Assembly: GCA_021432655.1 (NCBI GenBank)
Contig: MU271251.1
Span: 1-64,000, forward strand
Direction of reading: 5' to 3'
Origin: Atractiella rhizophila
Lineage: Eukaryota
Length of the DNA: 64,000 nucleotides
The notes beneath the pieces are model-generated. The model did no database searches, was not told the origin of the DNA, and saw only the letters and a list, made by a program, of their open reading frames with translations. A program made the position numbers and the translations under genes. Positions 451 to 53,459 of the stretch are shown one piece after another (position 1 is the stretch's first letter; the number at the start of each line of letters is the position of its first letter).

Positions 451-2273
<1,823 letters not shown>

Positions 2274-5034: not shown

Positions 5035-5351
5035 ATTGAGAGTTTGGACTTGATCGAGGTGAAACGGTACTTGAGGAAGCCTCAAGGGAAGTGGTCGCCT
5101 TCGTGAAAAAAAGAAAATTTTCTTTCTACTTTCGATTCAGAACTGTAGTGACGTTATATGTCCGAATTGTATTGGTACAGACTTTAAAACTTTCTATCCT
5201 CCGATTGCTGCGTTTAATTAACACGCTCCAATCGGCATGGGCCATCACACAACGACAAAGATAGTGTAACAATTGAGCATTCATTTACTACATCTTCTTT
5301 TTGGACGAGCCTCAAAGCTGCTACAACAATTGGTTCTCACATTCAAATATC

Positions 5352-12945: not shown

Positions 12946-15900
12946 ATGGCGTTTACTCCAACAGTGAGCGCGTGTTCTACACAAGATGACAGATTTACTC
13001 TGCACTAGACGCTCGCGCTTCTACTGTTCAAGACTCTACTGCTGCTACAGTACACTTCAAAGTCTGACGCCAACAGATTGCAGCTACAAGACCTGCTTCG
13101 GTTTTGAAAAACAAGGTGACATAGTCGCGAGGAAGCCTAACAAGCTCCTGTACCTGCTTCTGTTGCTCGGTTCGGCGGTCCAAGTATCAATCTTGATTGT
13201 CACTTGCAAATTTGGTTCTGAAACTCGTCCTGAAATTATTTTTGATGCATTTTTATGGGCGATCCTGCTTCTCCATTTGCGATACAAGACGGTCAAATGC
13301 CTTCGCTTCTCCTTGTTGGCATTTTTCACACTGCACCTATGTTCAAAACAATTAGAAGTGCATGCATTCTCCTTTGCTTACATAGACAAGTTCATAACCA
13401 TTTCCTTACTGTTTGCGACATTGCAACTTCCTCTCAAACCGTTCGCGTTAAAACCTTCTCATGGTTCTTTATTGAATCATGATCACATCACACTTTTTGA
13501 GTACCTGACTCTCTCATGGGTCACTCCATTGGTTAGATCAGACCCTTCTTCAAAAGATTTTAAGTCTAAAGTCTTTGATTTGAGCTTGGATTTAAAAACA
13601 GGAACAAATTGGGAAACATGGCGGAAGTATAGGTAAGCACTGCTGGACATTGACGTTGAGTGATGTTTGAATTTCTTTTTCAGCTCATCCTCTATCGTTC
13701 GACAATACTTCCGAAGCAATCAGGGCGAAATGGCCTTATCAACTGTATTAGTCTTCATTACAACGGCACTGGGTCGGTCTTCCCTTTTAGCTGTCCTCTC
13801 TGACTGACTACTGAATAGCATATGCGCCTTCCCACTACCTCTCTCGCATTTTGTCGTCCCCATCTCTCAGGAACGTAATCGCACCTTTCTTCGCCCTATC
13901 CCTTCGTGCTGTCCTCAAATGGGTCGAGCTCCTCCTCGTCCGTCAAATCATGGGTCGTACACGAGGGAACCTCACGGCTACGATATATTCCAAGCTCCTA
14001 CGCACTCCGCAAGGAACTGAAGCGGTGCATCTCCTCACGGACGTCGATAAGCTGGCAGACATCTGGTGTCTCATTCCGTATCTTCTCGTCACGCCCTTTG
14101 AAATTGGTATTGGCGTTGTGCTACTCTACCGGTTCGTTCCATATCTATTTTTTTGTATTGTAAGTTGATATAGGGTATCAGACAGCTGGGCAGCTCCGCC
14201 TTCGTCGGATTGTTGTTGCTACCCTTCACTTTCGTGGGAGCTAGAAAGCTATCTCGAGTGCATGCACAGGTTTAGTTTCACGTTTGATGCTGCCTGCAAG
14301 AAAGCCTGGCTGACTGTGTCCTGAGCAGGAGAACCGATCTAGAAATTTTTATCGAGATAGGTAAGGGTTCGTTCCTTATGTTGTACGAGGCATGTTGACC
14401 GGTATGCGGACAGCCGTGTCCCGAAGTTAGATGAGCTTATCCGGTTTATTCGACAGCTCAAGCTTTCTGGGTACCAGGAGTTCTGGTTGAAGGAATTGAA
14501 AAAGGTTTGTGCTTCGCCTTTGTTGGCGCATAAAATGATATTGAAGTCAGATCCGCGAACTTGAGCTTGGGCATCTGCTGAAAGCACATTGCGCTGCAGC
14601 TGGGGTTGCTTTGATCTGGTATGGTTGTCTCCCCTCAAGATTACATGAACTAATGGCCCGGTCAGGGAGCTGTCGGTGCCAATCATGGCATGTCTCAGTT
14701 TCCTTGCTTACACGACCATAGAAGGCAAAACACTCAGGTCGGTAGATACCTTGGTCATTTCAGTAGCAACTGAAGAATCATGCCACCGCGCACCGCATTA
14801 GTGTTTCTATCGTCTTCACTTCCCTTTCTGTCTTTCAGATGTTCAGCTATCCGCTGATTACCATTGCTGAAGCATTCCGAGACCTCATCCCTTGTGAGTC
14901 GTCTTCCAGTCTGAAGGATCAATTGTAATAGATTGCAATAGGTGAAGCATCTCTGATGAGGTTAGAGGAATACTTGCGACTGGAAGACGTCTCTCCCAGC
15001 GAAAGAGCGCAGAATCGCCGTGTCGGTTTCGCGGCTGCTTCATTTACTTTCAGTGGGCCTACAAAGCATGGGATACAGCCTAAGCTTGCATTGAAGAAGC
15101 TTCATGTCGATTTTCCGATTGGAAAAATCACATTGATTATTGGAAGCAGCGGTTCAGGGAAAACGAGTCTTCTAAGAGCTCTGCTCTCAGGTTCGTTCAC
15201 TTTCATTTTGAGGGATTAGAATCTGTGTCTAACGTATTTCTACTATAAGAACTTTACAGGGTCGAAGGAGAAGTGTATCTCTCATCGTCGGTCGCATATT
15301 GCTCTCAATTACCCTGGCTCTGTGAAGGGACAGTTCGGGACAACATCCTCTTCGGAACTAGCTATGATGAGCATCGGTATCGCATGACGATCGATGTTTG
15401 CGCCCTTGGCCCAGACCTTGAAGGATTTCCAGAAGGCGATTTGACAAGGGTCTCTGAAGGAGCGAGGAATCTCAGCGGGGGACAAAAGGCTAGGGTATGT
15501 TTGATTTTGACTCTGGACGCAGACATTTATATAACAAGCTGCAGATTTGCCTTGCGAGAGCTTTATATTCTTCCGCCAGCACCCTCCTCCTTGACTCACC
15601 ATTCGAAGCTTTGGACACCAGAACTGCAGCGCATATTGCAGCCTCCATCAACTCAGATATTTGGAGAGACAGGACTGTGCTGTTGATCTCTCAATCGGTG
15701 GAGCTATGCCAGCAATTTGCGCAGAAAACCATTCGCCTCGAAAGTGGCTCTATCGTTGAAGTCGAAATGCTGTCACCAACCTCACCGTCTCAGCCTGCTC
15801 TGTCGCCTTCATCTGTGGTATTGCCGGTTTACCCTTCTCAAGGAAGCGATGTTAAGGCAAAAGCCTCCTCAAATGGTTCGAAAGCGACGGGCTCTGAAAG

Positions 15901-18420
15901 TGGTGTCTGGACATTTTTCTCAGTTTACCCTTCTCAAGGAAGCGATGTTAAGGCAAAAGCCTCCTCAAATGGTTCGAAAGCGACGGGCTCTGAAAGTGGT
16001 GTCTGGACATTTTTCTCGGTCTTGGGAAAGTCTGCGTGGCTTGTGCTCCTGTTGTTGATTATACTGGAACAGCTCCTTAGTGGGTACCGTCACTAAGCCT
16101 ACGGTTCTCCTTACGCATGAGATGCAGGTTTTAGGACGACAATTCTTTTGAACAACTGGGGGGAAAGTTCAAAGTACTTTCAGTTCACTCCTCCAACGCT
16201 ATCGAATATGTACCTCAAACAATACATTCTCTATCTTGTGACCACATTCTCAATGCGGTTGCTTTCCACCTTTCTGATAGAACAGAACGTCCTGAAGACT
16301 TCAAGTCACCTCTTCCAGAATTGCCTAGAACGATTTACTGGTGGAGCATTCCACTATTATGACAACACGTCCTTCGGTAAGGCGTTTCATATATTTTGCT
16401 GGGTTGTCAAACTAAGTGTATGAGCAGGAAATATTACCAATTGCTTCATGAACGACTTTGAGGTTATTGAAGAATCTCTTCCGCGCAAACTACGACATGG
16501 ACCAGTAATATCGTCTATCTATTCGTCGATAGTGAGCATCTTCCCAAGACATTTGGCTCTTTAGGTTATTCTTTCTCGCAGATGATGACACTAGGTGGTG
16601 CCCCTATGAAGCCGCGCTTCCCTCACCTTGCACCGATCAGGACCCTTTATCGGCAGTATACCTCAGCTTACACAGCAGTCAGTAAAACAGAAAAGAACCT
16701 CAAAGGACCTATCATAACTCACTTTTCCGAGAGCCAATTAGGGCTCGAGGTTATCCGAGCATTTTCGGCGGAGTCTTATCACTTCAGAATGCTGCTTGAC
16801 CGCATTGACGATTTCAGCAGATTTCATTATGGTATCTATCGCATATTGCTATCGGGCGTTATAACTCATCAGTACATGGACAGCAACTCGCTACATCAAT
16901 CGTTGGTTCATGTTTCGTTGCGATTTGCTCGGCCCGCTTTTCTTCACGACATTAAACATTATCTCTTTGTCCTTAGCTCCGGGAGCTATGGCGGTAATCC
17001 TAACAGCCAACAATCAACTGGCTCCAAACACGTATTGGACCATAAAGTGGGCTTTGCCCATCGTGCTAGCGTTTTCTGACGACTTTCCAGATATGTTGAG
17101 GAGCTAAAGCGAGACTTTGATTGTAATTCACTTATTTTACAGATTTCAAGTGCACTAACCCAATGTTAAGCCGTAGAACGTGTACGGGAGCTCCTAAATG
17201 TCCCGCAAGAGCGATTGGGATATCGTCCTTCACGTCTCCGTGGAGTTGTGTCCATCACGTTTGTAGGTACTTTATCACTCAGGAATTGACCAAATGAAAT
17301 CGGATCCACAGGAAGGGGTATACATCAAGCATCAGAGTAACCTACCAGACGCTATCAAGAACATGTCGTTTGTGATTCATGCAGGGGAGAAAGTTGCCAT
17401 AGTGGGTCGCACGGGTATGAGATCTCTACAGCTCCCTTCGCGCTTAATCAACAATTTTCAGGTGCTGGCAAGTCCACACTGATCAGCAGTATCCTAGGCG
17501 CTGTATTGCCTCACGAGGGATCAATCAGGTATGAACCATAACTTGGTTCGATGCCACTCTCTCAATCACTTAGTCTCAACGGGGTCGATATGATGAGCGT
17601 GGACTTAGCAACCCTCAGAAAAGAGATTGTACGTTTCCCCGTTGCGTGCCCGTGAGTGCGCCTAATTTGTTTTAGACATTTGTTCCCCAAGATCGTTTGC
17701 GTTTCCCTCCTCTTGGCCAATCTCATCACTCCTCTAGCAATTCTCTTTTCCTCAAGCGTCCGAAACAACCTTGATCCTCTGTCGATGGTGCGTGTTTAGT
17801 CGTAATTGAGAAAAGTCTAACAGGAGAATGGCCAGCATACCGATGAAGAGTGTCTGCATGTGTTGCAAGGTTGCCAACTGCTGACTGGGACCACTGTGAC
17901 TTCCCTCACAGCGAATATAACGGAAATGAGTGTAGGGGAAAGACAACTGCTTTGCCTTGCTGTAAGTTTACGCTCCCGTGGTTGAGGCAGATCTCATGTC
18001 TGTCAACAGAGGGGAATGTTGAGGTACTTCCAAATCCATTTACCAGCTGGCATCATCTAACTTGCTGATAGGAACTCTGGCCTCGTAATACTTGACGAGG
18101 TCTGTCAATTTTTAAGTCAAATCTATTGCTTCAACGACTACCAGGCTACCTCTTCGTTAGATTTTGCGTCAGAAAAGAAGATAAAGTCGGTCATACAGAG
18201 TGGCTTCGGAAACTCCACGATACTTTCAGTTATTCATCGAGTGAGTGAATTCTTGACTTCGTCACTAATGACGGACTGGCAGCAGCTTCATGATCTGGAT
18301 TTCTACGACCGAGTACTTGTGTTAGAGGAAGGCAGAGTAGTTGAATTCGATACCCCTTCCAAATTGAGGAGGGCGGACGGTCTTCTCGCAAAAATGTTGG
18401 CAGCATCTTGTGCGAATTAG
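12946..18420 (+). CDS. Divergent ABCC/MRP-type ABC transporter (many short exons; boundaries approximate)
   Basis: NBD1 GSSGSGKTS, AYCSQLPWL, LSGGQKAR; NBD2 GEKVAIVGRTGAGKST, MSVGERQLLCLA, ILDEATSSLD, VIHR; transmembrane segments between. Confidence 0.82.
15827..16017 (+). repeat. Tandem direct duplication, 96-bp period (2 copies, 95 bp identical), in frame in the ABC transporter linker
   Basis: 15827-15921 is identical to 15923-16017; peptide VYPSQGSDVKAKASSNGSKATGSESGVWTFFS occurs twice. Confidence 0.97.
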
Positions 18421-18472: not shown

Positions 18473-19696
18473 TCAATACGTCCACCCAGCCTTTTGCCTC
18501 TTGAGAAGCTCGTCTACAGTGTCCTCAAAAATCCTTGTCGCCGGAATAAAATTCATGTTTAGAATCGTTTTGGCGGGACTCGTGTCCATCTCGCAAACTG
18601 GTCTCACTTCTGGAGGCAGGTCAGCATGGATTTGTGGAAGTCTATTGCGTAGTTCTGGCCGAGATTCACTGAGGTGCTTCACAACGTCTCTCCATAGCAT
18701 AGATCCGCTCGCAATAATGAATCTTCCTCCCTTCGCGTCCTCAACCTGTAGCGCCTTCACATGTGCGTCTGCGACATCTCGTACATCACAGAGAGGTGGG
18801 ACTCGATCCTCTGGCATGCTGGCGACTTCTCCGCTAATCAGTCTGTACACGTTGATGGATGAGGTATTGAGGTCCTCAGGGCCACGAAGAGGTTGACCTG
18901 GAGGTCCATAGATCATGGGTGGGTTGACTGGGCCGAATTATCAGTTAATCGATACAGAACGCGGCACAAGGTACGCACTTGTTACCAGCTCTAGGTCGTT
19001 CTCAAGGCAGAACTTTCGAGCTGCTTCTTCTGCAAATTTTTTCGACGCACTGTAGACCGTGCCAGCGTGAGTTTCTGAAAGTGCTTCATCCCAAGTGATC
19101 GGATTCCAGTCTATGTGTACATATATGTGACTCGACATAGGAATAACCAGCATACTCACCTGCAGAGGTATAACAGTAATTACGCCAACAGTGTCCAAGT
19201 TTTCTGTCAAAAATCGCTGCCATCGACGACGTAAGAACGACTCTACGAACAGCCGCTTTCTTCGCATACTTGAGGATATTGACTGTAGCATCGATGGCTG
19301 GTCTCAGCATATCTCGTTCATTGTCTTCGATTTGATAGTGGAATGGGCTGGCAACGTGGGCAACAAAATCGCAACCTGTTTCTCAAAATTGAAGGAAATG
19401 TTGATCCCATCGCTCCACCCACCTTCAAGAGTTTCCGATAGATTCCCATGTAAAAGGTCTGCAACTTCGACAATTTCACACTTTCCATTCGCGATGAAAT
19501 CTTGAAACTCTCGCCGAAGCGCCTCTTCAGACTTTGACGAGGATCTGACGGTTCCGCGGACGTGATACCCAGCCTGAAGCAATCGTTTGGCCTTTCATAA
19601 TAAAACACACTAAGTTTCAGCAGCCAGAATTGACATAGAACTCACAACTTCAAATCCTACAAAACCATTCGCTCCAGTTACTAATACTCTGGGCAT
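18473..19696 (-). CDS. NAD(P)-dependent epimerase/dehydratase-family reductase (Gre2/aldehyde reductase II-like)
   Basis: MPRVLVTGANGFVG, GYHVRGTVRS, RRVVLTSSMAA, catalytic YSASK, CDVRDVADAHV. Confidence 0.9.
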
Positions 19697-20098
19697 ACTG
19701 AAGTGAGCACTAGTAGATCAGAGTTGGTCTTCGTCGTGGGTGATGAGGCTAACTGGTTTAGCACCGTAACACTATATATAACTGCTGCCGGGGTTTTCAC
19801 TCATTGATACTCATTCCTCAGTGAAACGCCGGGACGCGCGTTCAACAATTCTTCTCATCGCATCTATGTGCATGATGGGATAGACTGAGGCTTCAACCCT
19901 GTGTGTGTGGTACTAGGTTTGAGTGGGACCAACGCCGTGGGATATCGCATCTAGCAACAACTTGACCCCCGAATTGCAGCTGGCTTGGCCGAATTTGCAG
20001 CAGAGGGCGCATACTTTGCACGGAGGTTGTACAAACTCATTCAAATTTTGCCACGGCATCTATTATGTAGTTAATGACGGTATTTGTACACTAGTGAG

Positions 20099-21841
20099 TC
20101 AGTCCGCGACCATGCCTTCTTCTTCTTCATGCCCACCGGGGATGCAACGCTTCTTCGCAGTGTTATCCTTACTCTTTTCGCGCGCAACGTCAAATTCCTG
20201 CCAGTCCAGATTAAGCCCTCGCTCCAGTCCTAGTTGTTCCATGAGGTCGATAGGGAATCCGTAGGTCTCGTACATTTTCCAGAGCTGACTTCCGGTAATT
20301 ACTTGGCCATCGGGACGTGTTCGTGCCAGCTTGTCGAACACTCGTTCGCAACGATGAATGATTTTGCAGAAAGCAGCTTCCTCCTTTTGCAAAGTAGCAA
20401 TTATGGTTGGAAGCTGGCCTCGCATGTTGGGATAGGTTGATCCCTAAGGTATGCCAGCATCTGGGAATGTACTCGAGTTGGGCCAAAAAAAGGCTCACCA
20501 TTTGTTCGATACAAACCTTCACCAAGCGCGGCCAGAAATCCTCGATTTCTTGGCCTAGCAGCCTCGTCATGCTAACGGCTCTTCTAAAAATTTTCCTTAA
20601 AACATGGCCGCGACCAGAACTATTAGGGAGTTGACCATCGGCGATAGCCACGCATATCGCACGCACATGGTCCACTATGACCCTGTAAGCCGTATCGATG
20701 TTTCCTACATCTTGAACTCCGAAGTGACCATCGTAAGGTTTCAAGGAGGCAGAAGGATTCGACTTGCAAAGTTCATAGACTGTATGAAGGAGATGTGAAA
20801 AGAGATCCGTATCGTAACTGTTTGTTTTGCCTTGCATAATCGAGACCAAGCGTTCCAACCCCATTCCAGTATCGATGTATTCGTAGCCAACGGGCCGAAG
20901 AGATCCATCGTCTTGCAGGAAAAGGGAAACGAAGGCGATGTCCCAGAATTCTACGAGAAAAGGATCTGAAGCGTTCACCAACGTCGGATCTCGATTGCTG
21001 ATAAAGTCGAAGTGAATTTTGCTGCTGGGACCGCACGGCCCAACCGCGCCCATTTCTAATTATTACATGCTGATGTTACCTAGCTCGTCTTAACAGAATG
21101 CAGACCTACTCCAAAAATTCAACACCTTATCTCCAGGGATGATGTGACAGTCGTTAACTCCCAAGTTTCTCCAAATGTCTCTACACTCAAGGTCGGGTTC
21201 TATTCGCTTCGCATAATCGCCAGGGTAGTAGGACACGTAAAGGCGATCTGCTGGAATGTTATACACATCTGTGAGCAGTTCCCAAGCCATTGATAGCGCT
21301 TCCGTCTGCGAGATATACCTTGTAAGTGACACGCTCGCAGTCAGGATAGAATGCCAACCTTGGAGTAGTCGCCGAAACTCCAGTTTCCCAGCATCTCAAA
21401 GAAGGTATGCCAGCACGGATCTCTCCCAACATTCTCAATATCTAACATGCGTATCAGAACCAGCCTGTTATAACATGTTATTACTTCCCGCCAAGCTTCC
21501 CTCCCACTCGAATGCACTTCTGGACACTGGCCGCTCTCCTTAGGTTTCTTAAGGGGGATTCTGAGTCGACTGTTTGAAGGAAGATCGGTTTGAACTGAGA
21601 AGGCGATCAGAACTCTGAGTTGGGGCGACAGATTTACTTGAAACATTCCTGCACCAGTGAACAGCGCCGTCGGGTCCTACAAAGATATCAGCACTCCTGA
21701 GCGATGGATCAATCCAGTCTGGGGATAATGATATACATCGTGTGGTACTACAGAACTTGATGGCACTAGAGTGTGTCCTCGCTGTTGGAAGAAGTCGAGG
21801 AACGTTTGTTTCACTTTCGATGATGGCCAGGATGTGACCAT
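20099..21841 (-). CDS. Truncated alanyl-tRNA synthetase-like protein, copy A (aminoacylation module only; one non-canonical splice donor, possibly pseudogenising)
   Basis: [93 protein letters not shown], then stop; no editing or C-Ala domain. Confidence 0.85.
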
Positions 21842-22214
21842 TGTTGCGAGCACACGAGCTGACGTTTGTTGGGAGGTGCATCAGGACCGACTGTGGGTCT
21901 TTATGAAGACTGGAGGCTGCGTCGCGACCTACGCAGGACAAAGTCGGAGTCAGGGCCATTTGGGACATCTGTTTGACTGGGCTAGGCATGGAGAAGTGAG
22001 AATGGAGGGGGAGCCTGTGAGTTATTGGCGCCGTCAGCCTGGCCAAGAAAGAAGTGGGAAACAAGGCAGAACACACGCGGCATGTTTAATTTAATACTCC
22101 AAAAACGAGAGCATATATATAGGACAACCTTATCAAATTATCAACTGGGTTGACGCATTAACTTCACACAAAATACCCTAAGTATTCATATTTGCCTGAA
22201 TACAACCCAAAAGC

Positions 22215-23918
22215 TTAGGTTTCTAGTGCTCCCTTACTCTCAGGCTTTGTTCCTTTCTTACTTTTCCTTTTCATCAACTCAAAACCTCCCCAGTCCATCT
22301 TTAGCCCGCGCTCCTCTGCAAGGCAAGCCATGAGATCTGTAGGGAAACCGTGAGTCTCGTACAATTTCCAGATCTCCTCTCCGGTGAGTTCACTACTGTG
22401 AACAGATTGAGCCAACTGGAGGAACGATTTTTCGCAGCGCTGAATGACTTTGTCAAAGGCCTCTTCTTCTTTATCAAGAACTGAAATGATGGTCGATAGC
22501 TTGCCTCGCAGGCTAGGGTAAGACGGTTCCTGTTCCAAATCAAGAAGTGGAGCATACAATAAAAGAGTGCCCACCATCAGTTCAACAAACGCCTGACATA
22601 AACTGACCCAGAAGCTCCTGTCTTCGACAACAAACGCAGTGCGTTTCACAAGGTGAGCTCTTCGAAATATCTTTCTGAGAACATAGCCGCGACCAGAGTT
22701 GTCAGGCATCTGTCCATCAGCAATCGCGATGCAGAGAGTCCTTGTATGATCCGCCACAATTCGATAGGCAGAATCAACATTCCCGACGTCGTCCGATCCT
22801 ACTTTGCCACCGTAAGGATGTAATGTGGGATTCTTCACTGTGCAGATCTTGTATATTGAGTTGAGCAGAGCTTCGAAGATATCCGTGTCGTAATTGCTTG
22901 TCTTGCTTTGTAGGATCGAAACCAAGCGCTCAAGTCCCATCCCAGTATCAACGTGCCTTTGTGGGAGTGGTTCAAGTGACCCGTCCACCTGTCGCGAGAA
23001 CGAAATAAAGACATTGTTCCAGATCTCGAGAACTGAGTCGTCCGACGTGTTCACTATCGATGAAGCGTCGCGATTTCCAATCAAGTCAAAATGAATTTCA
23101 CTGCTCGGTCCGCAAGGGCCTGTGCTACCCATTTCTTTCTCTTGCATTAGCTCTGCGATGGCCTCTTAAGCGGAGATTTACCCCAAAAATTGTCTTTACA
23201 GTTTCCTTGGACAATACGCTCCTCAGGAATGCCCAACTTTCTCCAAATATCTCGGCTTTCGTAGTCCGGATCCAGGCACTGTCGAGCGTCACCTTGAAAG
23301 TAAGTGACATAAAAGCGATCCTCCGGAAGCTGATACACCTTCGTGAGAAGCTCCCAGGACATTGAAAGAGCTTCTTCCTGCTCGCCAAACCAGTCATTAC
23401 AGGAAGCATAACCGAAATAGCAGTACTCACCTTCCAATAATTCCCGAAACTCCAATTACCCAGCATCTCAAAGAACGAGTGCCTGCAAAGGTCTTTCCCA
23501 ACATTTTCCAAATCTGTCGACAATCTGCTTAGACACACAACAAAGAAATTAGTGAAACCACGATACCGTTGTGCTTTCCTCCTGCACGAATACACTTTTG
23601 AATGCTAGTCGCTTGCTGCAGGTTCGCCAAAGGAGAAGTTGGTTGAACGGCTCCCAGGAATATAGATTTGAACTGCTCGCCAAGTTATTTCTACTACATA
23701 AAGTTTGTTGAAGGAAGCGAACTTGATTCATTCCAGCGTTGGTGAACAGTAGAGTTGGATCCTATTGCCATCTTTCTCGTAGGTGTTTGCTCCAGAACGG
23801 AAAAGCTTACATCTTCGAGAACTACTGAGCTAGAGGGTATCAACGTGTGACCTCTCTGCACGAAAAAATCAAGGAAAGTCTGTTTGACTTTCGAAACTGG
23901 CCACTGGTTTGCATCCAT
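22215..23918 (-). CDS. Truncated alanyl-tRNA synthetase-like protein, copy B (aminoacylation module only)
   Basis: [108 protein letters not shown], then stop; canonical GT-AG introns. Confidence 0.9.
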
Positions 23919-24240: not shown

Positions 24241-26691
24241 CTAAATATTCTCCTTGACCATCACATCGTCTCTCTTCCCTATCACCTCAACGAGGCTTGT
24301 GTATCCGCATAGTCCCATTGTGATCTCTAAATCGGCCAACAGGCACTTGAGCACCATTTCTACTCCTTCCTGTCCAGCAATAGCCAAACCGTAAAGGAAT
24401 GGCCGTCCGACTAAATATCCCAAGTCAACCAGATTTGCATTTTGATGGGAACCAAGATAGCGAAACTAAACGCACTCAAAACTCCCTGAGCACCAAGGGC
24501 TAAAGCCTTCAAAATGTCGCTTCCCGTCCGTATTCCAGAGTCAAAAAGTACCGTGAACTTGCCCTCCGCCTGTGCGGCTGCAATTGTTGGATCGGCGCAG
24601 ATGCGGTCGAGGGCTAGGAGCGCGGGGATGGCCCCATCGACTTGTCTTCCCCCTACAGGCGGAGCGTCGAAGATGAGGAGATACCTCGGTAAAGGGACTG
24701 TGAAGAGGACCTACCGTGATTGGATACGACGACACCGTGTACTCCTGCTTCCAGGGCTCGTTTCGCATCCTACATGTCCCTTCAATTTCATCCGCGATAG
24801 AGAGAGGAACCGAAATCTCACATCCGGCCTAAGGACACCTTTCAAAATAATTTTACCCTCCCAGTTATTCTTGATAATCTTAAGATCCTCCCATGTCTTA
24901 TAAGTGCCCGAGCAAATCTCTCCTAATAACTTGACACTATAGTTGACAATCTTCAAAGCCTCTTGATCTCCCCTCTGCAGCTTGTCGTGCCACTCTGCAG
25001 GGACGTAAGGGAACGGGGGCTCCGTGATGATTGGCCGTGTACCCTGCTGGGCCATGAAGAGTGGATCGGAGATGCCGATGGACGTGCCGTATCCGTGTGC
25101 GAAGGGAAGATAAGAGGCATCCAAGTCGTGCGGCCGCCAGCCCAGTTGCATGGTATCGAGGGTGATGACAAGGGTGGTGTAGCCTTCCTTTCTGGCTCTC
25201 CTCAGCAGTGACAGGGTGACATCTACGTTCTTCGGCCTTCAAAAGGGAAACGTCATTGCCTTCATTCCGTCAGGGAGAGAGACCCACGAACCAATAAAGT
25301 TGGAACCACCTCTCGCCCTCTCCACTCGCTTTCGCAACAGCCTCCAATGTCCTTGTTGCGGCTGTGGAAAGGGTAAATGGGATCTTCATTTTACTCGCAG
25401 CCCTCGCCGTCGCACATTCAGCGTCGGAATGTAAGAGCCCTTGAACACCAATAGGGGCGATTATGAGTGGCGTCGGACGATTGACGCCGAATATGTCTGT
25501 CTGTCAACATTGAACGTCTTGTGAGGCAAAGCGGTGGTAGGAGGGGGAAAGGAGGACAAACGGAGACGTTACGATGCGTTGTATTTACTAACATACGTGG
25601 TTGCAGGTGGTAGTTTTCGAAGGCGCGCCGGTTGGCTGCCTCTGTTGAGCAGGTGCCCGCACTCCCAAAGGTGTACAGAAATGCATCTAACATAAGTGTC
25701 AACCGCCTACTCTTTACCTCTTAAGATAGACTTCATAAATGAGAATGCTGATTTGAATCGCTAGAGGGCGGCCCTTTCTATCTGGGGCAGCGTCTACCGC
25801 AGGTAATTGAAGCAATCTCTTTCTCCATCGCACGGAATTGGTAGATCGGTCAATGTGTGAGCAATTTCAGAGGATCGAATTCGATCCACAATAGCTTTCT
25901 ATCTGCATGCGGCGGTGAAGGACGCTGCGGCTCTTGCAACACAATCTCGACCAGGTCTCAACGCAAGTTTTACACGCGTTCTTAGGTATCAGAATTGAAA
26001 GAGATGGATAGTTCAGCAATACAGCACTCGACCGTGACATCTGCGGACTCGGGTTGAGAAGATAATTGTAGAGCGAAATGTTGCACCTTCCACCTCCTCA
26101 ACCCAACCCAGAAGATTTCCAGAGACAGATGTCTCAACATGAGCTGGCAATAGCAACCGGTTGAAACGCCATGCAGAAAGTCACCGGGTGGATGTCCTCA
26201 CACGAAACCTCGGGCACATTACGGGAAGGGGATGACGAAGCGCGCACAACTTGAAACAATGTCTGGGCCATCACCTTCGGTTGCATCTAGGCGTACTGAG
26301 CGAGCCACGCACTTTAGGAGGATGCTAATCTTCGAGAAGGATGCCCGACGTTATGATGAAGAAAGGAACTCTTCCAAAAGGCACCATGCACAGCATCACA
26401 TCAATTCAGGGCAAGAAAATGAAAGTGAAGCTGAAACATGCACGAAGAAAGGCGAAATTGCACGGGAATCGAGGGAAAAATGAAGGAAAACGCACTGATG
26501 TTCTGGGCAAACTTTTCCCTCGCCTTCTCCTCCCACTTCCTCCAGTCCACGCTCCCAAGCGGCTCAGGGGCCTGCCCAAGTCTATAGATTTCCTCTAAAT
26601 AGGCAGAATATTTTATTCCTTCCGGCTGCCTTGGAGTTCTGAGCGATCTCAGGATGTCGGTCGAGGTTAAGGAGGACTTGGTTTCTGCCAT
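24241..26691 (-). CDS. FMN-dependent alpha-hydroxy acid oxidase/dehydrogenase (lactate 2-monooxygenase-like; no cytochrome b5 domain seen)
   Basis: FGSAGTCSTEAANRRAF, IIAPIGVQG, WFQLYW, TLDTMQLGWRPHDL, ILKGVL, VSNHG, FDSGIRTG, VGRPFLYGLA; 809-nt first intron at 25687-26495. Confidence 0.9.
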
Positions 26692-27436
26692 CTTGTCGGT
26701 GACGCTGACGTAGGCGATGAGATGGTAGAAGGTAAGAAGGTGAGATGGAGAGGCTGAAAAATTGTTTGAGGGGGATAGCTGTTGGTCGTCTTGAGAGTGT
26801 TGCTTGGACAGGAAAAGCAGGAGACGCGCAAAGGCTAAATCGGGTACGCTGTTTCGATAACGTTCGATCACGATCAGGCCGATGAGGTTTTGCTGGAACT
26901 GGAACGAGCGAAAGGCCCGTGAAAAGCTTTGGTCCCTGGGTGAAAGGTTAGGGGTTTACTCTTTCACGTCATTAACTGGCGTCAACCAGCTTCAACTAAT
27001 TAACTTGACTCTTGAGGAGCTTGAAGGTGACAGCAAGAGCTTCTGCTTTAACTAGCACTAGGAATTACAGTACAGCCCATCTCGCAAGCTGTTTCTCACA
27101 ACTGTGTAACCTGGAATTGACGCAGTTACTCCGCAGAGCCTCAGGGTTGCCGCCGCGTAGCCTCTTCATACTCTCACTGTGAAATTCTGCCTCTGACCAA
27201 CGAACGGGTTTGCCCCTACGAATTTACAACGAAGGAAGGGTTCAGCTTAGGAGCAATAAGCCACCAGGTGCGTCTCTTTCCGTTCCTGCTCCAATTCAAG
27301 GACCGGAAAGCTTACGGTCCCCAACCGCGGCAATTTCAGGCTTGCTTTGAGCTAACGCTTATTACACAACTTGAAAGAGGCAGGCAGCTCTACACCACTT
27401 TCTGGCGCTCCAAAGAGAAACAGAGAAGTTCACGTC

Positions 27437-30400
27437 ATGTCCTCTCCTCTACCTACGGCTTCCGCACCCGATGACGACCTCCTCCAAATCTTCCACGACC
27501 GCCCGTACTCCCGCTTCTCCCTCCCAGCTCCCTTCACTGTCGGTTCCACAAGCACACCCTTACATATCCCAACACTGCAACCATGCATCTTACCCGAACA
27601 GAAGAAGAAGGTCCTGGCCATCAGAGAGGGAGAGTCCGCCAATGTCGTCAGCGAGGTTCAGGCTCATTTGAGGGAGGATCCCTATGGTTCGCTCTGCTTT
27701 CGCTCCACATAATGACTGTACCTTGGTGACTGAAATACCCATGTGATGCAGAATTCCTGAGACAATTAGGTCATTGGGCAACCGGTACTTCCTGGCGGGG
27801 CTTCAATTCGTATGTAGGACAGAAAATATTTTACGAGACCTATTCCGAGGAGCAAATCAGCTTTTTACTAAAATCTGAAGCAGTCAACCGGCGCATAGAC
27901 GCGTTGGTTGAACAGAGAGGAGGTGGGAAGGAAGAAAGGAGAAAACTGAAACGTGAAGCAGAAATGATGATGCGAGGAGTGGTACCGACTATGGATAGCG
28001 TGCCTAGTTTACGGTATGCTTTCTGACCAAAGGAACGGCGATTGATTTCGGTGCATAGCGCGTTTGGAGCGACCGTGAACAATATTTTGGTACGATTATA
28101 CGACCAGGGGTCTGTCTTCCCTCTGTCCTTGTGGTATAAGAAAGTACACTCTCTGACCCAACGAATCTGGGTTTTGACAGAATACACATCTCTCCAACCG
28201 AGTTCCTCGCTTTCCGAAAAGCCGCTATTAAGGCTCAAGACGCACGCCAATCCCTTCTCGTCGTCCCATGCCATAAATCGCATATTGACTATCTAACCGT
28301 TTGTCGTCCTCTCCTCTGCTTACAACCTGCTCTTGAGCCCTGCTTAACGTAAAGATATTGACACTGAGTTGGTAGATATCATTTCTCTTCTTTCGGTTAT
28401 CGCTAGCGCTCCCGCATATCGTTGCCGGCGATAACCTCAACCTTCCTGTCGTCGGGAAGGTCCTTAAAAATTGTGGAGCCATGTTCATACGCCGTTCTTT
28501 CGGGGAGGATACGATGTACAGCACAATCGTTCAGGGTTCGCGCCTTACCTCCCAACTATTCACGCTGAACAGAGTGGTTGACTGATTTGTGCTGAGGCAG
28601 AATACGTCGAGCTCCTCCTTGAACAAGGTCACAATATCGAATGTTTCATTGAAGGCACACGTTCACGGACAGGGAAGCTCCTGCCTCCGAAGTTGGGGAT
28701 ATTGAAATATGTCCTTGACGCCTTGGTTAAAGGTCGAGCAAGCGACGTCTGGATTGCTCCAATCAGGTCCGTCGTTGTCTCTTCTCCTTATAGAAGCAGA
28801 CATAAACCTCGAAGCCAATTTGTGGTAACAGCGTCCAGTACGACAAAATCATTGAAACTGAATCTTACGTCAACGAGCTCCTCGGCAACCCGAAGGAGAA
28901 AGAGTCTCTCTGGGGACTCGTCACAAATACACGAATTCTTCAGCTGAAAAACGGACGTATAGACGTCCGATTCAACGAGCCCTTCTCCCTCCGTCTCTTT
29001 GTCGAAGACCAACTGCGCCGTCGCTCGTCCGAGCCTGATAGTCCTGATCGAATAGATGTTTCCGAGCTGATGAGAGAGGATCGTCTCGCGGAGGGTCAAC
29101 GCAAGATTACTGTGCTCCGCGCGTTGGGATATCGCATCCTCAGTGATATCAATAAAGCTGCCGTCATTATGCCTGCGTCGCTGGTTGGGACTGTGGTGCT
29201 AACTTTGAGAGGCAGGGTATGTCACCACATCTTGTTTGACTCTTCAAGGGATTACTGATATGGTATGGGCTAAAGGGAGTCGGAAAGAATGAGCTAATCC
29301 GGCGCGTGGATTGGCTGAGGAAGGCAATCATCTCCAAAGGCGGCAGAGTGGCGGATTTCGCAGGAATGACTTTAGAGGAAGGTCTGTCTTTTACCTTGTG
29401 CCGAAAGACACTGGGTTGATGGATTCCAACCGGATGAATAGTGGTGGAGCGCTCTTTACTAGTCATGAAAGACCTCATAGGTACACACAAAGACCTCGTC
29501 GAGTCGACTTACTACGCTGCGAAGAGGTTCGAGCTTTCGTTCTACAGAAATCAGGTGATACATTTATTTGTTTCGGAAGGTAACACGTTCCCCTACCAAA
29601 TTCAAAGCATGTCTTTTAAATTCAGGTGTGGTATTATGACAGCGATCTTCTCCGCCACACTCTACACGCGTGTCAAACAAGGCGGTGAACACCCAAATCA
29701 ACGAATGCAGGTCAACGAGATGGTGGAAGAATTGGATTTTCTTTCAAGGCTTTTGAAGAACGAGTTTGTCTATGAAACGGAAGGCTTGGAGGCCAACGCC
29801 CGTGGAACGATTGAACGTCTCGAGGTCCGAGTTTCTTCTTCTCCTTTAAGAGACAACGATGCTGATATGTTGGAGCACAGCGGGACGGCGTTATTGCTGT
29901 CGAGAACGATCTAGTTGGTCTGTCAACCAAGGAGAGGAGCATTGGACGAGAAAATTTTGGCACGTCTCTCTTTTTGTCTCGCTTGAAAACTGAGCTTACT
30001 GGCGTATAGACTTTTATTGCTTTCTAAGTGCCTCTTTTCGTTCTCCACTAGAGCTCGTCTGACTTCTTTCGTAGTGTGGCCTTTCATCGAGACTTACTGG
30101 ATTGCGTGTAAGTCTTAGACGTTGTCCTTCGTCTGTTCTGACAACGCTTTCTTAATAGCTGTTAGCCTCTTCGCTCTCACCCCTCCACGCAATGCACCAA
30201 AGAACCAGCTGTTTTGGGTGAACGAGAAGCAGTTTCAAGCTCAAGCACAACTATTTGGGAAGACTCTCTTTTACCAGGGAGATGTCTCCTACCTGGAAGC
30301 TATAAACCAAGCGACGCTTTCGAATGCTTTTGAACGGCTTTTCCAGCTTGGGCTTACCCAAACCCGACGCTCCAAATCGGGCAAGTCGATTCCTCTTCTT

Positions 30401-33303: not shown

Positions 33304-35987
33304 TCAGTCGACGTGGATGAATATTGGTCCAACTAAAGAAACAGCTGTCGTGTTCCCACGTGGACGGAGGGGATCATCCGGGTTAGCGATCCAATACGAA
33401 TACCCTTCGCCTTTTGCAGAACCCCAACCTATTGCTGCATTAGAACCTTCTTATATGGTCGAGTGTGGGACGTACTGCGGCGATAGGACCAAGTTGACTC
33501 CCGAACTCGTCCTTCATCATCCTGTATTCCGTTTTTCGGAAGGGTGACATCGATAGTTCCTTGTGTAACAGCAGCCTGCAAAAGAAAGCATAAGCTTAAG
33601 CTGGGAGTGGAATGTCAGTCTGTGTACGCACCAACCAGGTACCCTCCCATTCCTTAACATGCTTCACGTCGATACGCCCTGCCGCAGACCCAAGTGTGGT
33701 TTCAAGAACCTTGCGTCTTGGCTGAGCGCTATACGAAAGGTCGATGTTCCCAGAGACGACCGATATATTCACAGTTGCTGGTTGGAACAACGAGATAGCA
33801 TGGTCTACGAAGATCTAGTTAAGAAGAGTGAAACAACCAAAACAGTTTGAATACGCACTTTCCCAAATACCGAGATTGAGCGTAACGTCTCCACTGGCTG
33901 TCGCAGCCAAAACAGATTCGCTAAAGCTAACATCTTGACCGTGAATTGACCCTGCGGCGCTAGCGACGGACAATGCAGAAGCATTCAAAGACGTCAAATC
34001 AATTGTCCCAACAGCGCTCCCAAACTCGGCGGTCTCCACGAGCAAACTCTTTGGAAGGTCCACATCAGCAGTCATGACGAACTGACTCGTAATCGAGAAT
34101 GCATTGAGTTTCTTGAGAGAGGAAGCGATGCTGATTTCGGTAGAGAACGTCAGACCGAGGTGTCCGGTTTTCACGGGATGATTCCGTGGTAAGTTCTTTG
34201 GAGAATACAGCAACAATCCTCTGTGCGCTCCACCCTTCGACGACGCCGCAGCGGTGTTGACGAGGCAAACGTGGACAAGATCCAAGGTCAAATTTTCCTC
34301 CTCCTCATCCCACGATGCGGAGTGATCTCCATGACTATGCGTAAAGCGAGGGTACATCTGGACCCGAACGAGGTGTGTCTTCTTGGAAGTAGCCGAAGGA
34401 GACAAGTAGGGGAGGGGGAAAGAGAGCGGAATCGGGCTTGAATGAAGCTCGGCTGATGACGCTGCAATGGGATGACTATCTTCAGTATTGGCGGTGACGG
34501 CAGCGCGGGACAACGATCCATTGGCTAAAAAGAAAAGTCCATCGACCTCGTCTTGCAATGAGATATCAAAGGTGAGCGTGCGACTGAACCAAGATGGCAG
34601 CTGTGGTTCGTTCCCTCTGTTCAGCTTTTCATTCTTCGGGTCGGGAATTGCCTGCTTGAGTTTTTCCCAATCCTTCTTGATCCCATCGAGGACTTCCTTT
34701 CCGATTCTGGGGAGAGGAATCGATGGCCAACCTTGAAGATCGTTATCGACAAAAGAATCTATATCTACGACGTCGTGCTCTTCAAAGCCTTTCTCGACAT
34801 AATAATCGATGATATCTTTGTATGATTTACCGTTTCCGTCAAAAGGTTTTGAAGTCGGTTTCATCCATTCGCGATACAGTCGACAGTCGCTCTTCGCCGG
34901 CTCGCCAGGAACGAGTGGAGTTGGAACTTTTGGCATCTAATACATGTGTTAAGATCGTGCGTGATTGCTTGGGAGGGTCACTTACCGATATTGGAGGCTT
35001 GGCCAAATTATCTCGATGACCAATATAGAGGTTGACCTCAGCCATCCATCCCAGGATGGCGCCAAAGAAGATATAGAGAAGGAGTCCCCAAAGGAGTGCG
35101 CCACAGAATCTGAAACAGAATACATGTTAGTACCCAGTCCCAAAGTGGCTTTCGAAAAGAATATCCCGCAAAATCTGCAACTAATAATCCTCCACAAATT
35201 ATTGGAACAACCTAGGGAACAAACATGAAGCATCCACAATGCACTAGTATGAACTCATACTCCCAAGGGTGCCACATGCTTATTTATAGATGAGGTCTTG
35301 ATGGATGCCGAACTTTCGTCGGATTTAGGACTTTTGCGCGCATACCAATGAACTCTTCCTTGATGAATATGGGCAGTATGACACTAAACCAAACAGATGC
35401 CCACCATGAAAGCATATGTATTCGTGTTCATGGTCATTTCTTGCCTTTCTTGTCTAGATTAAATAGTCCTTTTCGATTCAAACTTGAATAATCTTGGAAA
35501 AGGGGCAAATAAACGAAAGATAGATATGCAAACCAGTACAGTGTAAGAAAATAACGCGCTAGCCTAGTGCCCACTGTCTTGGGCCAAGCACTGACTCTGA
35601 ACTGGTATTTCTAGACAGCGACTTTGAGCCCTGGCATTATTGGGACACCGATCAAGCATCCACATGGATCAACAGCAGGCTCCATGCAATCCAAAATGCA
35701 AACCAACAACCGCACTTTCGACACAAAGAAAAGACATACCTCTGCCTAGCTCTTTTCTTCGCCTCATTCCTCCACTGCTCCCTCCGATCCCCAAACACGG
35801 TCCTTTCTCCCGCCTCCAACCTACCCCCTCCTCCTGAAGCAGCCGTCGCATACGAGTTATACAGCCTTGGACTCCCATGCACGTAATATTGAGGTCCAGA
35901 CTGGTTTGAGTGGGTCGACTGGTACGGAGCTGAAGCGGTGGAGGCCATGTAAGCGGGCGGCTGGGCTTTGGAGTCCGTCAGATGCAT
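33304..35987 (-). CDS. Uncharacterised single-pass membrane-anchored protein with beta-rich C-terminal region
   Basis: Exon 1 (MHLTDSK...KKRARQR) splices across a 630-nt intron (35739-35110) to FCGALLWGLLLYIFFGAILGW, a TM helix; then the 373-aa ORF 33815-34936 with repeated S/A-x-G-x-I/V units; ends PIFIHVD*. Confidence 0.65.
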
Positions 35988-40014: not shown

Positions 40015-40334
40015 TTGGCAACTCCCAGAGATGTAGAATATGCGTGAGAGAGTATGTGGTGATGCCCCCTTGTCCACAAAGTCCAAATTAAGGACTCAAT
40101 ATCACGCCATGTTACTGTGCTAAAGTTGAAATTATAACCTTATTACTTTGACATTGTTCTTTGAAACTTCTTTCCTTGCTTCCGCATATTCCTGCGAAAG
40201 CTATGCTGGCTATATGGCTTCCATCCCAGATGTTGAAAGAAGTCAAGATACAGTATTCGTAGATGTTCCCACTATGAATTATATACACATATTTCAACTT
40301 GCGTTCATACACACTCCCCATCATTTCGGGCATT

Positions 40335-47298: not shown

Positions 47299-53459
<6,161 letters not shown>

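What the first reader, a model, noticed from the sequence alone, without database searches (positions are those of the whole stretch)
20099..23918. Tandem pair of mini alanyl-tRNA synthetases lacking editing and C-Ala domains: candidate non-translational aaRS-like enzymes
Seen: two same-strand paralogues with shared intron positions. Each encodes only the class II adenylation core plus the helical domain (roughly 450 aa, estimated) and stops a few dozen residues after the YETxGFPxDL motif. No HxxxH/CxxxH editing domain or C-Ala domain follows either gene, and both stop at nearly the same point, so the truncation probably predates the duplication. Known: housekeeping AlaRS is ~900-960 aa and needs editing to clear Ser/Gly. 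AlaRS-like enzymes are used in natural-product aminoacylation (ascamycin pathway), and AlaRS can act as a lactyl-AMP-forming lysine lactyltransferase. Inference: these are repurposed adenylating/transferase enzymes, or a self-resistance copy, rather than translation enzymes.
Basis: partly seen in the sequence, partly recalled or inferred. Interest (0 to 1): 0.88.

Follow-up and report, generated by a model that had tools for sequence, protein, structure and literature searches.

The report
Tandem mini alanyl-tRNA synthetase genes, fungus
A root-associated basidiomycete carries two neighbouring, expressed genes for half-size alanyl-tRNA synthetases that lack the proofreading and C-terminal domains, a form so far described in print only for a giant virus and a Streptomyces antibiotic pathway.

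Summary
On the minus strand, gene A (23918-22215, 468 aa) and gene B (21841-20099, 476 aa by RNA) each have seven exons. Their six introns share positions and phases. Both stop after the helical tRNA-recognition domain. No editing or C-Ala remnant lies anywhere in the 64 kb. NCBI names both proteins as Atractiella rhizophila alanyl-tRNA synthetase.

RNA contigs show both genes spliced, and contigs of two root metatranscriptomes run through B's stop. Variants between strains suggest purifying selection (pN/pS about 0.18 for A, 0.25 for B).

A and B are sisters inside Basidiomycota. Their only close relative among 1.84 billion representatives is an unnamed full-length AlaRS (P0353) that shares their remodelled helical domain. 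A keeps the ATP and alanine pocket. B evolves about 2.7 times faster and has changed pocket residues, including the Asn that is also changed in the Streptomyces transferase AcmF.

Best reading: accessory, non-housekeeping enzymes. A is probably an editing-free alanine activator or tRNA-Ala charger, and B a neofunctionalised partner. No function was tested.

No biosynthetic core gene is nearby, so self-resistance is unlikely. A housekeeping AlaRS in this genome could not be confirmed. Interest is moderate to high.

The parts
22215..23918 (-). Gene A, mini-AlaRS, 468 aa. Exons 23918-23811, 23761-23723, 23672-23567, 23513-23431, 23377-23182, 23134-22575, 22529-22215.
   Evidence: The translation equals P0001. 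PF01411 scores 514 bits over residues 10-463, profile positions 1-433 of 552. It aligns over residues 7-452 to the human AlaRS 1-455 fragment 4XEM, E 3.5e-150. Introns 2-6 are spliced in RNA contigs.
20099..21841 (-). Gene B, diverged mini-AlaRS, 476 aa by the RNA model. Exons 21841-21737, 21676-21638, 21594-21489, 21441-21359, 21305-21110, 21055-20499, 20443-20099.
   Evidence: All six introns are spliced in run X9. Contigs of X2 and X3 run through the stop to 20053 and 20060. PF01411 scores 429 bits for the database model P0002. Its end branch is 2.43 against 0.90 for A.
21442..21488 (-). B intron 3 (47 nt, phase 1), at the same position as A intron 3. In the window it begins GG, not GT.
   Evidence: The joint 21441 to 21489 is seen in X9, and the letters were read. 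The database model P0002 instead removes 21517-21465, which deletes the motif-2 stretch.
22530..22574 (-). A intron 6, 45 nt, in frame with no stop if retained.
   Evidence: It is spliced out in contigs of X9 and X3. It lies at the same position as B intron 6.
21842..22214 (.). Spacer between A's stop and B's ATG (373 nt).
   Evidence: No contig of the four runs covers 22015-22155. One X1 contig covers 21799-22004. No read-through transcript was seen, but contigs cannot prove absence.
24241..25720 (-). Context only: upstream neighbour on the same strand, an FMN-dependent L-2-hydroxyacid (lactate) oxidase / 2-monooxygenase-like gene. Limits are approximate.
   Evidence: PF01070 hits four ORF pieces. 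The best solved relatives are L-lactate oxidase 7F20 (E 6e-22) and lactate 2-monooxygenase 6DVH (E 2e-13 and 3.5e-8).
18476..19641 (-). Context only: downstream neighbour on the same strand, a GRE2 / dihydroflavonol-reductase-type NAD(P)H short-chain reductase. Limits are approximate.
   Evidence: PF01073 gives a weak hit. The solved relatives are anthocyanidin reductase, methylglyoxal reductase GRE2 and cinnamoyl-CoA reductase, E 7e-14 to 1e-9.

Best explanation
A and B are lineage-specific accessory paralogues of alanyl-tRNA synthetase. They arose from a full-length basidiomycete AlaRS of the P0353 type by loss of everything after the tRNA-recognition domain, followed by tandem duplication.

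Shown: the anatomy, shared introns, splicing, descent, and an excess of synonymous variation.

[quoted passage not shown] This is what the equivalent human 1-455 fragment and the Tupanvirus mini-AlaRS do. B changed much faster after the duplication and altered the amino-acid pocket and the motif-2 loop. It is therefore no longer a standard alanine activator. It either activates another small acid or uses the charged tRNA as a donor, as AcmF does beside AcmD in ascamycin synthesis. The pair would then serve a non-ribosomal acyl or aminoacyl transfer rather than bulk translation.
For: Anatomy and truncation.

Expression:
- X9 contigs are spliced at A introns 2-6 and B introns 1-6.
- Root metatranscriptome contigs X1-X3 are spliced at 1-3 introns each.
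- X2 and X3 run through B's stop.

Selection: A has 7 nonsynonymous and 11 synonymous variants (pN/pS 0.18, one-sided binomial 3e-4). B has 7 and 8 (0.25, 0.008). In A, 1 of 7 nonsynonymous against 6 of 11 synonymous changes lie in the catalytic half (codon positions).

Descent: (A,B) has 100/98 support and (P0353,(A,B)) 100/99, inside Basidiomycota at 96/93. Eighteen conserved columns carry derived states in all three and in no other of 500 rows; the next best row has 6.

A's active site: it keeps the motif-2 stretch up to the Asp after His-Asn, the FFEM stretch, the E-I-W-N-x-V strand and the DTGMGLE stretch. It keeps all five human pocket residues R77, M100, W176, V218 and D239 named in PMC11093599 (mapped). 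It keeps the acceptor-stem Asn. Beyond the changes it shares with full-length P0353, its helical domain has 4 further changes shared with B and none of its own among 72 conserved columns.

B: it has 24 B-only changes among 129 conserved catalytic columns, including H83L, N84G, N217D, V219A, R225L, P235G and H238Y.

Precedents:
- Human AARS1 1-455 alone is catalytically active in vitro (PMC11093599, passages).
- The 461-aa Tupanvirus mini-AlaRS charges tRNA-Ala and rescues yeast ala1 (PMC10036535, passages).
- AcmF is a truncated AlaRS-like Ala-tRNA-dependent transferase whose pocket Asn is replaced (PMC12945691, passages).
Against: - No activity was measured.
- A itself differs from the consensus at 18 of 129 highly conserved catalytic columns. 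These include the first His of the H-H pair (to Arg) and the Gln and Asn after the pocket strand (both to Ser).
- The acceptor-stem Asp is Glu in A, B and P0353, and in 5 of 195 canonical rows.
- The E. coli N461 fragment binds tRNA-Ala poorly, with Kd above 32 uM (PMC10036535). A bare truncation is therefore a weak charger unless compensated.
- In the window's own allele B intron 3 begins GG. That allele may be mis-spliced, and the public model P0002 deletes motif 2.
- X9 and X1-X3 carry other alleles or strains. Contigs give no expression level, and low-depth contigs (2-7) may hold errors that blur the variant counts.
- One X9 contig of B leaves the window sequence 13 nt before the stop with a 31-nt loose end.
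- No acceptor, carrier or transferase gene is recognisable nearby, and no tRNA gene is in the window.
Confidence: 0.5

Rival explanations
1. Lactate or 2-hydroxyacid module. The mini enzymes activate L-lactate or a related small acid as an acyl-AMP and pass it to a lysine or a small molecule. They would work with the flanking lactate-oxidase-like and GRE2-type reductase genes.
For: The four co-oriented genes are 320-460 nt apart. The upstream one is nearest to L-lactate oxidase and lactate 2-monooxygenase. The downstream one is nearest to methylglyoxal and flavonoid reductases. Human AARS1 1-455 forms lactyl-AMP and lactylates histones in vitro, using the pocket residues that A keeps (PMC11093599, passages). 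B's V219A would enlarge the pocket.
Against: Adjacency in a fungal genome is weak evidence, and many neighbour families could be given a story after the fact. The Asp that holds the alpha-amino group is kept in both genes. No orthologous locus exists to test conserved linkage: 80 metagenome loci reach 53% identity at best over the full length. Co-expression was not measured.
Confidence: 0.13
2. Non-catalytic sensors or regulators. These would be pseudoenzymes that bind alanine, ATP or uncharged tRNA-Ala, as HisZ or the HisRS-like domain of GCN2 do (both recalled, not checked here).
For: Both proteins changed universally conserved catalytic-domain residues after the split from P0353: 8 columns are shared by A and B, 6 are A-only and 24 are B-only. 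Even so, they stay under constraint.
Against: A keeps every pocket and ATP-site residue checked. Its catalytic half carries 1 nonsynonymous against 6 synonymous variants, which fits retained chemistry.
Confidence: 0.15
3. Decaying partial duplicates without function. They are transcribed only because they kept the parental promoter and introns.
For: The GG donor of B intron 3 in the window. B's very long branch of 2.43. No orthologue was found elsewhere.
Against: Both reading frames are open over 468 and 476 codons, although A and B are only 56% identical to each other. All 12 intron positions are retained, and 11 of the 12 introns are seen spliced. There is an excess of synonymous variants in both genes.
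Confidence: 0.1
4. Self-resistance copy that protects against an AlaRS inhibitor made by a nearby gene cluster.
For: Extra aaRS copies serve this role in other clusters (reference list of PMC12945691; otherwise recalled).
Against: No PKS, NRPS, terpene-synthase or other core biosynthetic family appears in 215 ORFs of the 64 kb. [quoted passage not shown]
Confidence: 0.03

Closest known systems
Tupanvirus mini-AlaRS (TuAlaRS, 461 aa; PMC10036535, abstract and passages read)
   Same: [quoted passage not shown] Its catalytic motifs are kept, as in A.
   Different: TuAlaRS is viral, single-copy and related to its host's enzyme, and it lacks both acceptor-stem residues (Asn and Asp). Here the genes are cellular, in a tandem pair with introns. 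A keeps the Asn and has Glu for the Asp. B has a changed pocket.
AcmD/AcmF of ascamycin biosynthesis in Streptomyces (PMC12945691, passages read)
   Same: AcmF is a truncated AlaRS-like protein with only the aminoacylation and tRNA-recognition domains, and it works beside an AlaRS-like charging enzyme. AcmF's pocket Asn is replaced (N219Q). B has Asp at the position three residues after the same conserved Glu (the equivalence is inferred from spacing).
   Different: AcmF lacks most ATP- and alanine-binding residues and has D232E. B keeps the motif-2 Arg, the adenine-stacking stretch, the Asp and motif 3. AcmD is full-length-like and bacterial. No biosynthetic cluster is visible here. Sequence kinship with AcmF was not tested.
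Engineered catalytic fragments: human AlaRS 1-455 (PDB 4XEM, 5KNN) and E. coli AlaRS 441N/461N (PDB 3HXU)
   Same: A aligns end to end with these fragments, residues 7-452 to 4XEM at E 3.5e-150. It stops within about 15 residues of their ends.
   Different: Those fragments are laboratory truncations of housekeeping enzymes. A and B are natural genes, 55.8% and 47.3% identical to the nearest of the 220 full-length AlaRS compared.
Unnamed full-length AlaRS P0353 (964 aa, from the representative library)
   Same: It is the only protein sharing the pair's 18 derived states and the sister of A+B. It is 57% identical to A.
   Different: It has the beta-barrel, editing (tRNA_SAD) and DHHA1 domains and a near-canonical catalytic domain, with 8 of 131 conserved columns changed. 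Its helical domain is remodelled, with 20 of 80 columns changed against a canonical median of 1 and maximum of 11. Its organism is unknown.

Membership tests
Alanyl-tRNA synthetase, class IIc (Pfam tRNA-synt_2c) | Significant match to PF01411 above the curated cut-off | tested here: met
   A scores 514 bits and B (P0002) 429 bits against a cut-off of 30.3. The match ends at profile position 431-433 of 552.
Alanyl-tRNA synthetase, class IIc (Pfam tRNA-synt_2c) | Alanine/ATP pocket residues (human R77, M100, W176, V218, D239; PMC11093599) and the pocket Asn | tested here: met
   A keeps all of them. B keeps 4 of the 5, with V to A, and has Asp for the pocket Asn (numbering mapped through). The feature is met for A only.
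Alanyl-tRNA synthetase, class IIc (Pfam tRNA-synt_2c) | Asn and Asp that read the G3:U70 pair (E. coli N303, D400; PMC10036535) | tested here: inconclusive
   A has Asn present and Asp changed to Glu. B has Asn changed to Ser and Asp changed to Glu. Glu also occurs in P0353 and in 5 of 195 canonical rows.
Alanyl-tRNA synthetase, class IIc (Pfam tRNA-synt_2c) | Editing domain (tRNA_SAD) and C-Ala (DHHA1), as in the prototype architecture | tested here: not met
   There is no hit in A or B or in 215 ORFs. tblastn gives nothing below E 0.16 in 64 kb.
Alanyl-tRNA synthetase, class IIc (Pfam tRNA-synt_2c) | Charges tRNA-Ala with alanine | not testable with these tools
   This needs ATP-PPi exchange and aminoacylation assays.
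Natural mini-AlaRS (Tupanvirus type) | Only the catalytic plus tRNA-recognition domains, about 460 aa, with catalytic motifs kept | tested here: met
   The proteins are 468 and 476 aa. The motifs are kept in A and partly in B.
Natural mini-AlaRS (Tupanvirus type) | Functions as an AlaRS in vivo (rescues yeast ala1) | not testable with these tools
   A complementation experiment is needed.
AcmF-type AlaRS-like aminoacyl-tRNA-dependent transferase | Truncated to the aminoacylation plus tRNA-recognition domains | tested here: met
AcmF-type AlaRS-like aminoacyl-tRNA-dependent transferase | Loss of most ATP/alanine-activation residues, including the pocket Asn and Asp | tested here: not met
   A keeps them all. 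B changed the Asn, the His-Asn of the motif-2 loop, a Val and an Arg, but keeps the Arg of motif 2, the Asp and motif 3.
AcmF-type AlaRS-like aminoacyl-tRNA-dependent transferase | Sits in a biosynthetic gene cluster with the acceptor's pathway | tested here: not met
   No core biosynthetic family appears in 215 ORFs of the window. Only an oxidase-like and a reductase-like neighbour are present.
Self-resistance aaRS copy | Complete, functional extra copy of the target enzyme inside the producer's cluster | tested here: not met
   The genes are truncated and no cluster core is present.

The most novel reading that the evidence does not exclude
The pair is a fungal counterpart of AcmD/AcmF built from AlaRS halves. 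A would make Ala-tRNA-Ala, or an acyl-AMP from alanine or lactate, without proofreading. B, with its altered pocket, would pass the group to a non-tRNA acceptor. The flanking lactate-oxidase-like and reductase genes might supply or process that acceptor. The remodelled tRNA-recognition domain, shared with the full-length relative P0353, would mark a private enzyme-RNA channel kept apart from translation.
Probability: 0.15. Interest if true: 0.85.

Novelty: new variant of a known kind. Interest (0 to 1): 0.6.

Why it matters
Papers on AlaRS state that the enzyme keeps one prototype architecture throughout biology (abstracts of PMC10036535, PMC8887476 and PMC10485164, seen in the listings). In the library searched, the only natural catalytic-half forms I found are one giant-virus enzyme and the bacterial transferase AcmF.

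A cellular eukaryote that keeps two such halves, expressed in roots and under constraint, would be a third, independent case. It offers a direct test of what an editing-free AlaRS core is used for: an unproofread Ala-tRNA supply, tRNA-dependent transfer, or lactate or alanine sensing.

The full-length relative with a specifically remodelled tRNA-recognition domain raises a second question. Has this lineage changed how tRNA-Ala is recognised?

Tried and rejected
- Whole-genome search for a housekeeping AlaRS: no genome is held.
- Search with the C-terminal half of a Melampsora AlaRS: none of the 120 listed rows is from Atractiella. Several other Pucciniomycotina classes are missing too. P0353's C-terminal half would score 429 bits, below the 487-bit list limit. 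The miss therefore says nothing.
Their origin stays unknown.
- Other short hits as possible mini-AlaRS: those read look like fragments or mis-called models of canonical enzymes. No fungal one is diverged like A or B.
- Orthologues in metagenomes: 91 of 155 matched stretches encode relatives and 80 were kept. The best reach 50-53% identity over the full length, so they are ordinary AlaRS.
- My first model of B intron 3, a GC-AG intron at 21491-21442, was wrong by 3 nt. The RNA contig places the donor at 21488.
- Horizontal transfer from bacteria: rejected, because the pair nests inside Basidiomycota and carries spliceosomal introns.
- A dedicated tRNA or other known RNA nearby: none was found.
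- dN/dS between A and B: not attempted. At 56% protein identity the synonymous sites are saturated.
Parts of the stretch without contig cover (22015-22155, A exon 1, A's stop) are no finding.
- Structure prediction and the complex test were not run. The sequence match to solved fragments is decisive for the fold, and I make no claim that A and B bind each other.
Full report
**What is there.** The window is fungal nuclear DNA. The two proteins of the finding are in the public protein collection under the NCBI name 'alanyl-tRNA synthetase [Atractiella rhizophila]', on one 122,684-base contig. Both genes lie on the minus strand.

Gene A runs from the ATG at 23918 to the stop at 22215. It has seven exons, and its 468-aa product is identical to P0001. 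Gene B runs from 21841 to 20099, also with seven exons. The six introns of each gene (43-60 nt) interrupt homologous codons with the same phases, 0,0,1,0,1,0. The proteins are 56% identical.

**Truncation.** Pfam finds only tRNA-synt_2c in both, ending at profile position 431-433 of 552. A full-length relative run in the same call shows tRNA-synt_2c to position 552 plus tRNA_SAD and DHHA1.

None of 215 stop-to-stop ORFs of 90 aa or more in the window hits tRNA_SAD or DHHA1. Seven ORF pieces hit tRNA-synt_2c, all inside the two genes. tblastn with residues 460 to the end of three full-length AlaRS gives nothing better than E = 0.16 anywhere in the 64 kb. The N-terminal control hits both genes at E of 1e-100 or lower.

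Against solved structures, A aligns over residues 7-452 with the crystallised human AlaRS 1-455 fragment (4XEM, E 3.5e-150) and with E. coli 441N.

**Transcripts.** Of nine runs that hold part of the stretch, I laid four. All are assembled contigs, so they show presence and joints but not levels.

- Run X9 (kind not on record; its contigs are spliced) has joints at A introns 2-6 and at B introns 1, 3, 4, 5 and 6. B intron 2 shows as two loose ends that read on into the neighbouring exons.
- Three root metatranscriptome runs from different studies have spliced contigs: X1 over A intron 5 and B intron 4, X2 over B introns 4-6, X3 over A intron 6 and B introns 4 and 6.
- X2 and X3 contigs, spliced at B intron 6, continue through B's stop to 20053 and 20060. 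B's stop is therefore used in those transcripts.
- A's contig ends 15 nt before its stop, with no loose end.
- No contig covers 22015-22155.

Two oddities remain. First, the X9 joint puts B intron 3 at 21488-21442, the same position as in A, but the window reads GG at the donor. The public model P0002 instead uses a GT-AG intron at 21517-21465 and so deletes the motif-2 stretch. Second, the X9 contig of B departs from the window 13 nt before the stop, with 31 unmatched letters. All four runs carry alleles that differ from the window.

**Selection.** I took the differences listed in table 3 as natural variants.

| Gene | Nonsynonymous | Synonymous | pN/pS | One-sided binomial vs neutral |
|---|---|---|---|---|
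| A | 7 | 11 | 0.18 | 3e-4 |
| B | 7 | 8 | 0.25 | 0.008 |

In A, 1 of the 7 nonsynonymous and 6 of the 11 synonymous changes lie in codons 1-255 (positions listed). The numbers are small and some come from contigs of depth 2-7. Even so, the direction argues against dead duplicates.

**Relatives.**
- With A's last two exons as query, 2951 of 4073 near-length candidates and 7806 of 8000 longer ones match. Only the best 120 of each are listed. After A itself and B, identities are at most 50%.
- The short hits I read are fragments or mis-called models of ordinary AlaRS.
- Against 220 full-length AlaRS, the best identity is 55.8% for A and 47.3% for B's public model.
- A single-protein scan of JGI metagenomes returned 80 loci, at most 53% identical over the full length.
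- A profile of A+B against 1.84 billion representatives gives A at 992 bits, then one 964-aa protein, P0353, at 611 bits, and everything else at 566 bits or less.

P0353 has all AlaRS domains. It is 57% identical to A, 46% to P0002 and 52% to a rust AlaRS.

In a careful tree of 34 rows, (A,B) has 100/98 support. (P0353,(A,B)) has 100/99 and sits inside Basidiomycota at 96/93. Branch lengths are 0.82 for the common stem, 1.14 for P0353, 0.77-0.91 for the A+B stem (the two figures come from different rootings), 0.90 for A and 2.43 for B. The median tip is 0.37.

Eighteen columns that are at least 90% conserved in 195 canonical rows carry derived states in all three. No other of 500 rows has more than 6. 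The origin of P0353 could not be learned.

**Where the changes are.** In P0353 the helical tRNA-recognition domain is the outlier: 20 of 80 conserved columns are changed, against a median of 1 and a maximum of 11 in 70 canonical rows sampled from 195. The other domains are near normal: catalytic 8 of 131, editing 5 of 76, C-Ala 0 of 10.

A and B inherited this remodelled domain. Of 72 conserved helical columns, 14 are changed in all three, 4 more in both A and B, none in A alone and 7 in B alone.

After the split from P0353 the changes shifted to the catalytic domain. Eight conserved columns are changed in both A and B: R12K, D88N, Y94C, H95R/W, F111W/S, C188S, Q222S and N224S/F. Six are changed in A only and 24 in B only. 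The canonical set is mostly fungal, so some 'invariant' columns vary in other lineages. From memory, E. coli has Asn at the D88 position.

A keeps the motif-2 Arg with the G-G-K-H-N-D loop, the F-F-E-M stretch, the E-I-W-N-x-V strand and D-T-G-M-G-L-E. This includes the five human pocket residues R77, M100, W176, V218 and D239 (PMC11093599, passages; mapped through). B has H83L, N84G, N217D, V219A, R225L, P235G and H238Y.

For the two residues that read G3:U70 (N303 and D400 in E. coli; PMC10036535), A has Asn and Glu, B has Ser and Glu, and P0353 also has Glu.

**Surroundings.** No PKS, NRPS or terpene-synthase family appears in the 215 ORFs. There is no tRNA gene and no Rfam family.

Four genes are co-oriented and closely spaced on the minus strand:
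- an FMN-dependent 2-hydroxyacid oxidase-like gene, nearest to L-lactate oxidase and lactate 2-monooxygenase;
- gene A;
- gene B;
- a GRE2/flavonoid-reductase-type short-chain reductase.

This is suggestive, because human AARS1 1-455 makes lactyl-AMP in vitro (PMC11093599). It is still only adjacency, with no orthologous locus to test it.

**Reading.** Shown:
- Two natural, intron-bearing mini-AlaRS genes.
- Truncation before duplication.
- Fungal descent from a divergent full-length AlaRS lineage.
- Splicing in RNA from several studies.
- An excess of synonymous variation.
- An intact pocket in A and an altered one in B.

Inferred:
- A still activates alanine and probably loads tRNA-Ala acceptor stems without proofreading. 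Since leaving the full-length lineage, its tRNA-recognition domain has hardly changed at conserved columns.
- B has taken a new role after a burst of change. Candidates are another substrate or, by analogy with AcmF beside AcmD, aminoacyl-tRNA-dependent transfer (PMC12945691, passages). AcmF's replaced Asn lies three residues after the same conserved Glu as B's N217D; that equivalence is my inference from spacing.

The caveats are these:
- No assay was done.
- A itself has 18 changes at conserved catalytic columns.
- A bare E. coli N461 fragment binds tRNA poorly (PMC10036535).
- B intron 3 has a GG donor in the window.
- It is unproven that a proofreading AlaRS exists elsewhere in this genome.

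**Literature.**
- 'mini-AlaRS' occurs in two papers of the library among those listed. One is the Tupanvirus paper, of which I read the abstract and passages. The other is a preprint I did not open.
- Fifteen papers mention Atractiella rhizophila. Twelve were listed and none has a title on synthetases.
- A five-term search for AlaRS paralogues in fungi found 23 papers, 12 of them listed. I read passages of the fungal survey PMC4301749. It lists one AlaRS of 969-1019 aa in each of three fungi.
- In these searches I found no description of a cellular mini-AlaRS. Subscription journals are not covered. The primary AcmF paper (ACS Catal. 2024) was seen only as a citation.

**Verdict.** It is a new variant of a known kind: the natural catalytic-half AlaRS, known from a giant virus and from AcmF. 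Interest is 0.6.

Noticed in passing
window 21442-21517: The public protein model of gene B (P0002, 474 aa) removes 21517-21465 and so deletes the motif-2 stretch. The RNA contig of run X9 instead splices 21488-21442, keeping motif 2, but the window reads GG at that donor. This is either an allele-specific donor defect or an assembly error.
   Followed up: partly
window 20083-20114: One X9 contig of gene B leaves the window sequence 13 nt before the stop, with 31 unmatched letters, while X2 and X3 contigs read straight through the stop. The cause is unexplained. It could be an alternative allele, an isoform or an assembly tip.
   Followed up: no
protein P0353 (no locus): A full-length AlaRS of unknown origin has a tRNA-recognition domain with 20 of 80 conserved columns changed, while its catalytic, editing and C-Ala domains are near-canonical. 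It may mark a lineage with altered tRNA-Ala recognition.
   Followed up: partly
window 40324-41697 (-) and 43680-46385 (+): An acetate kinase gene and a phosphoketolase (XFP) gene lie about 2 kb apart on opposite strands, pointing away from each other. Together they would form the two-step phosphoketolase route.
   Followed up: no
window 774-2023 (+) and 3042-5136 (-): A tubulin gene and an IMP dehydrogenase gene sit side by side. Both are ordinary housekeeping families here, and there is no sign of a linked cluster.
   Followed up: no
window 14932-17076 (+) and 50021-53293 (+): Two ABC-transporter genes are present. The first gives only a nucleotide-binding P-loop hit in ORFs of 90 aa or more, so its model is unclear.
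   Followed up: no
window 26154-28530 and 33818-34936 (-): Several long ORFs, including one of 373 aa at 33818-34936, have no Pfam family.
   Followed up: no
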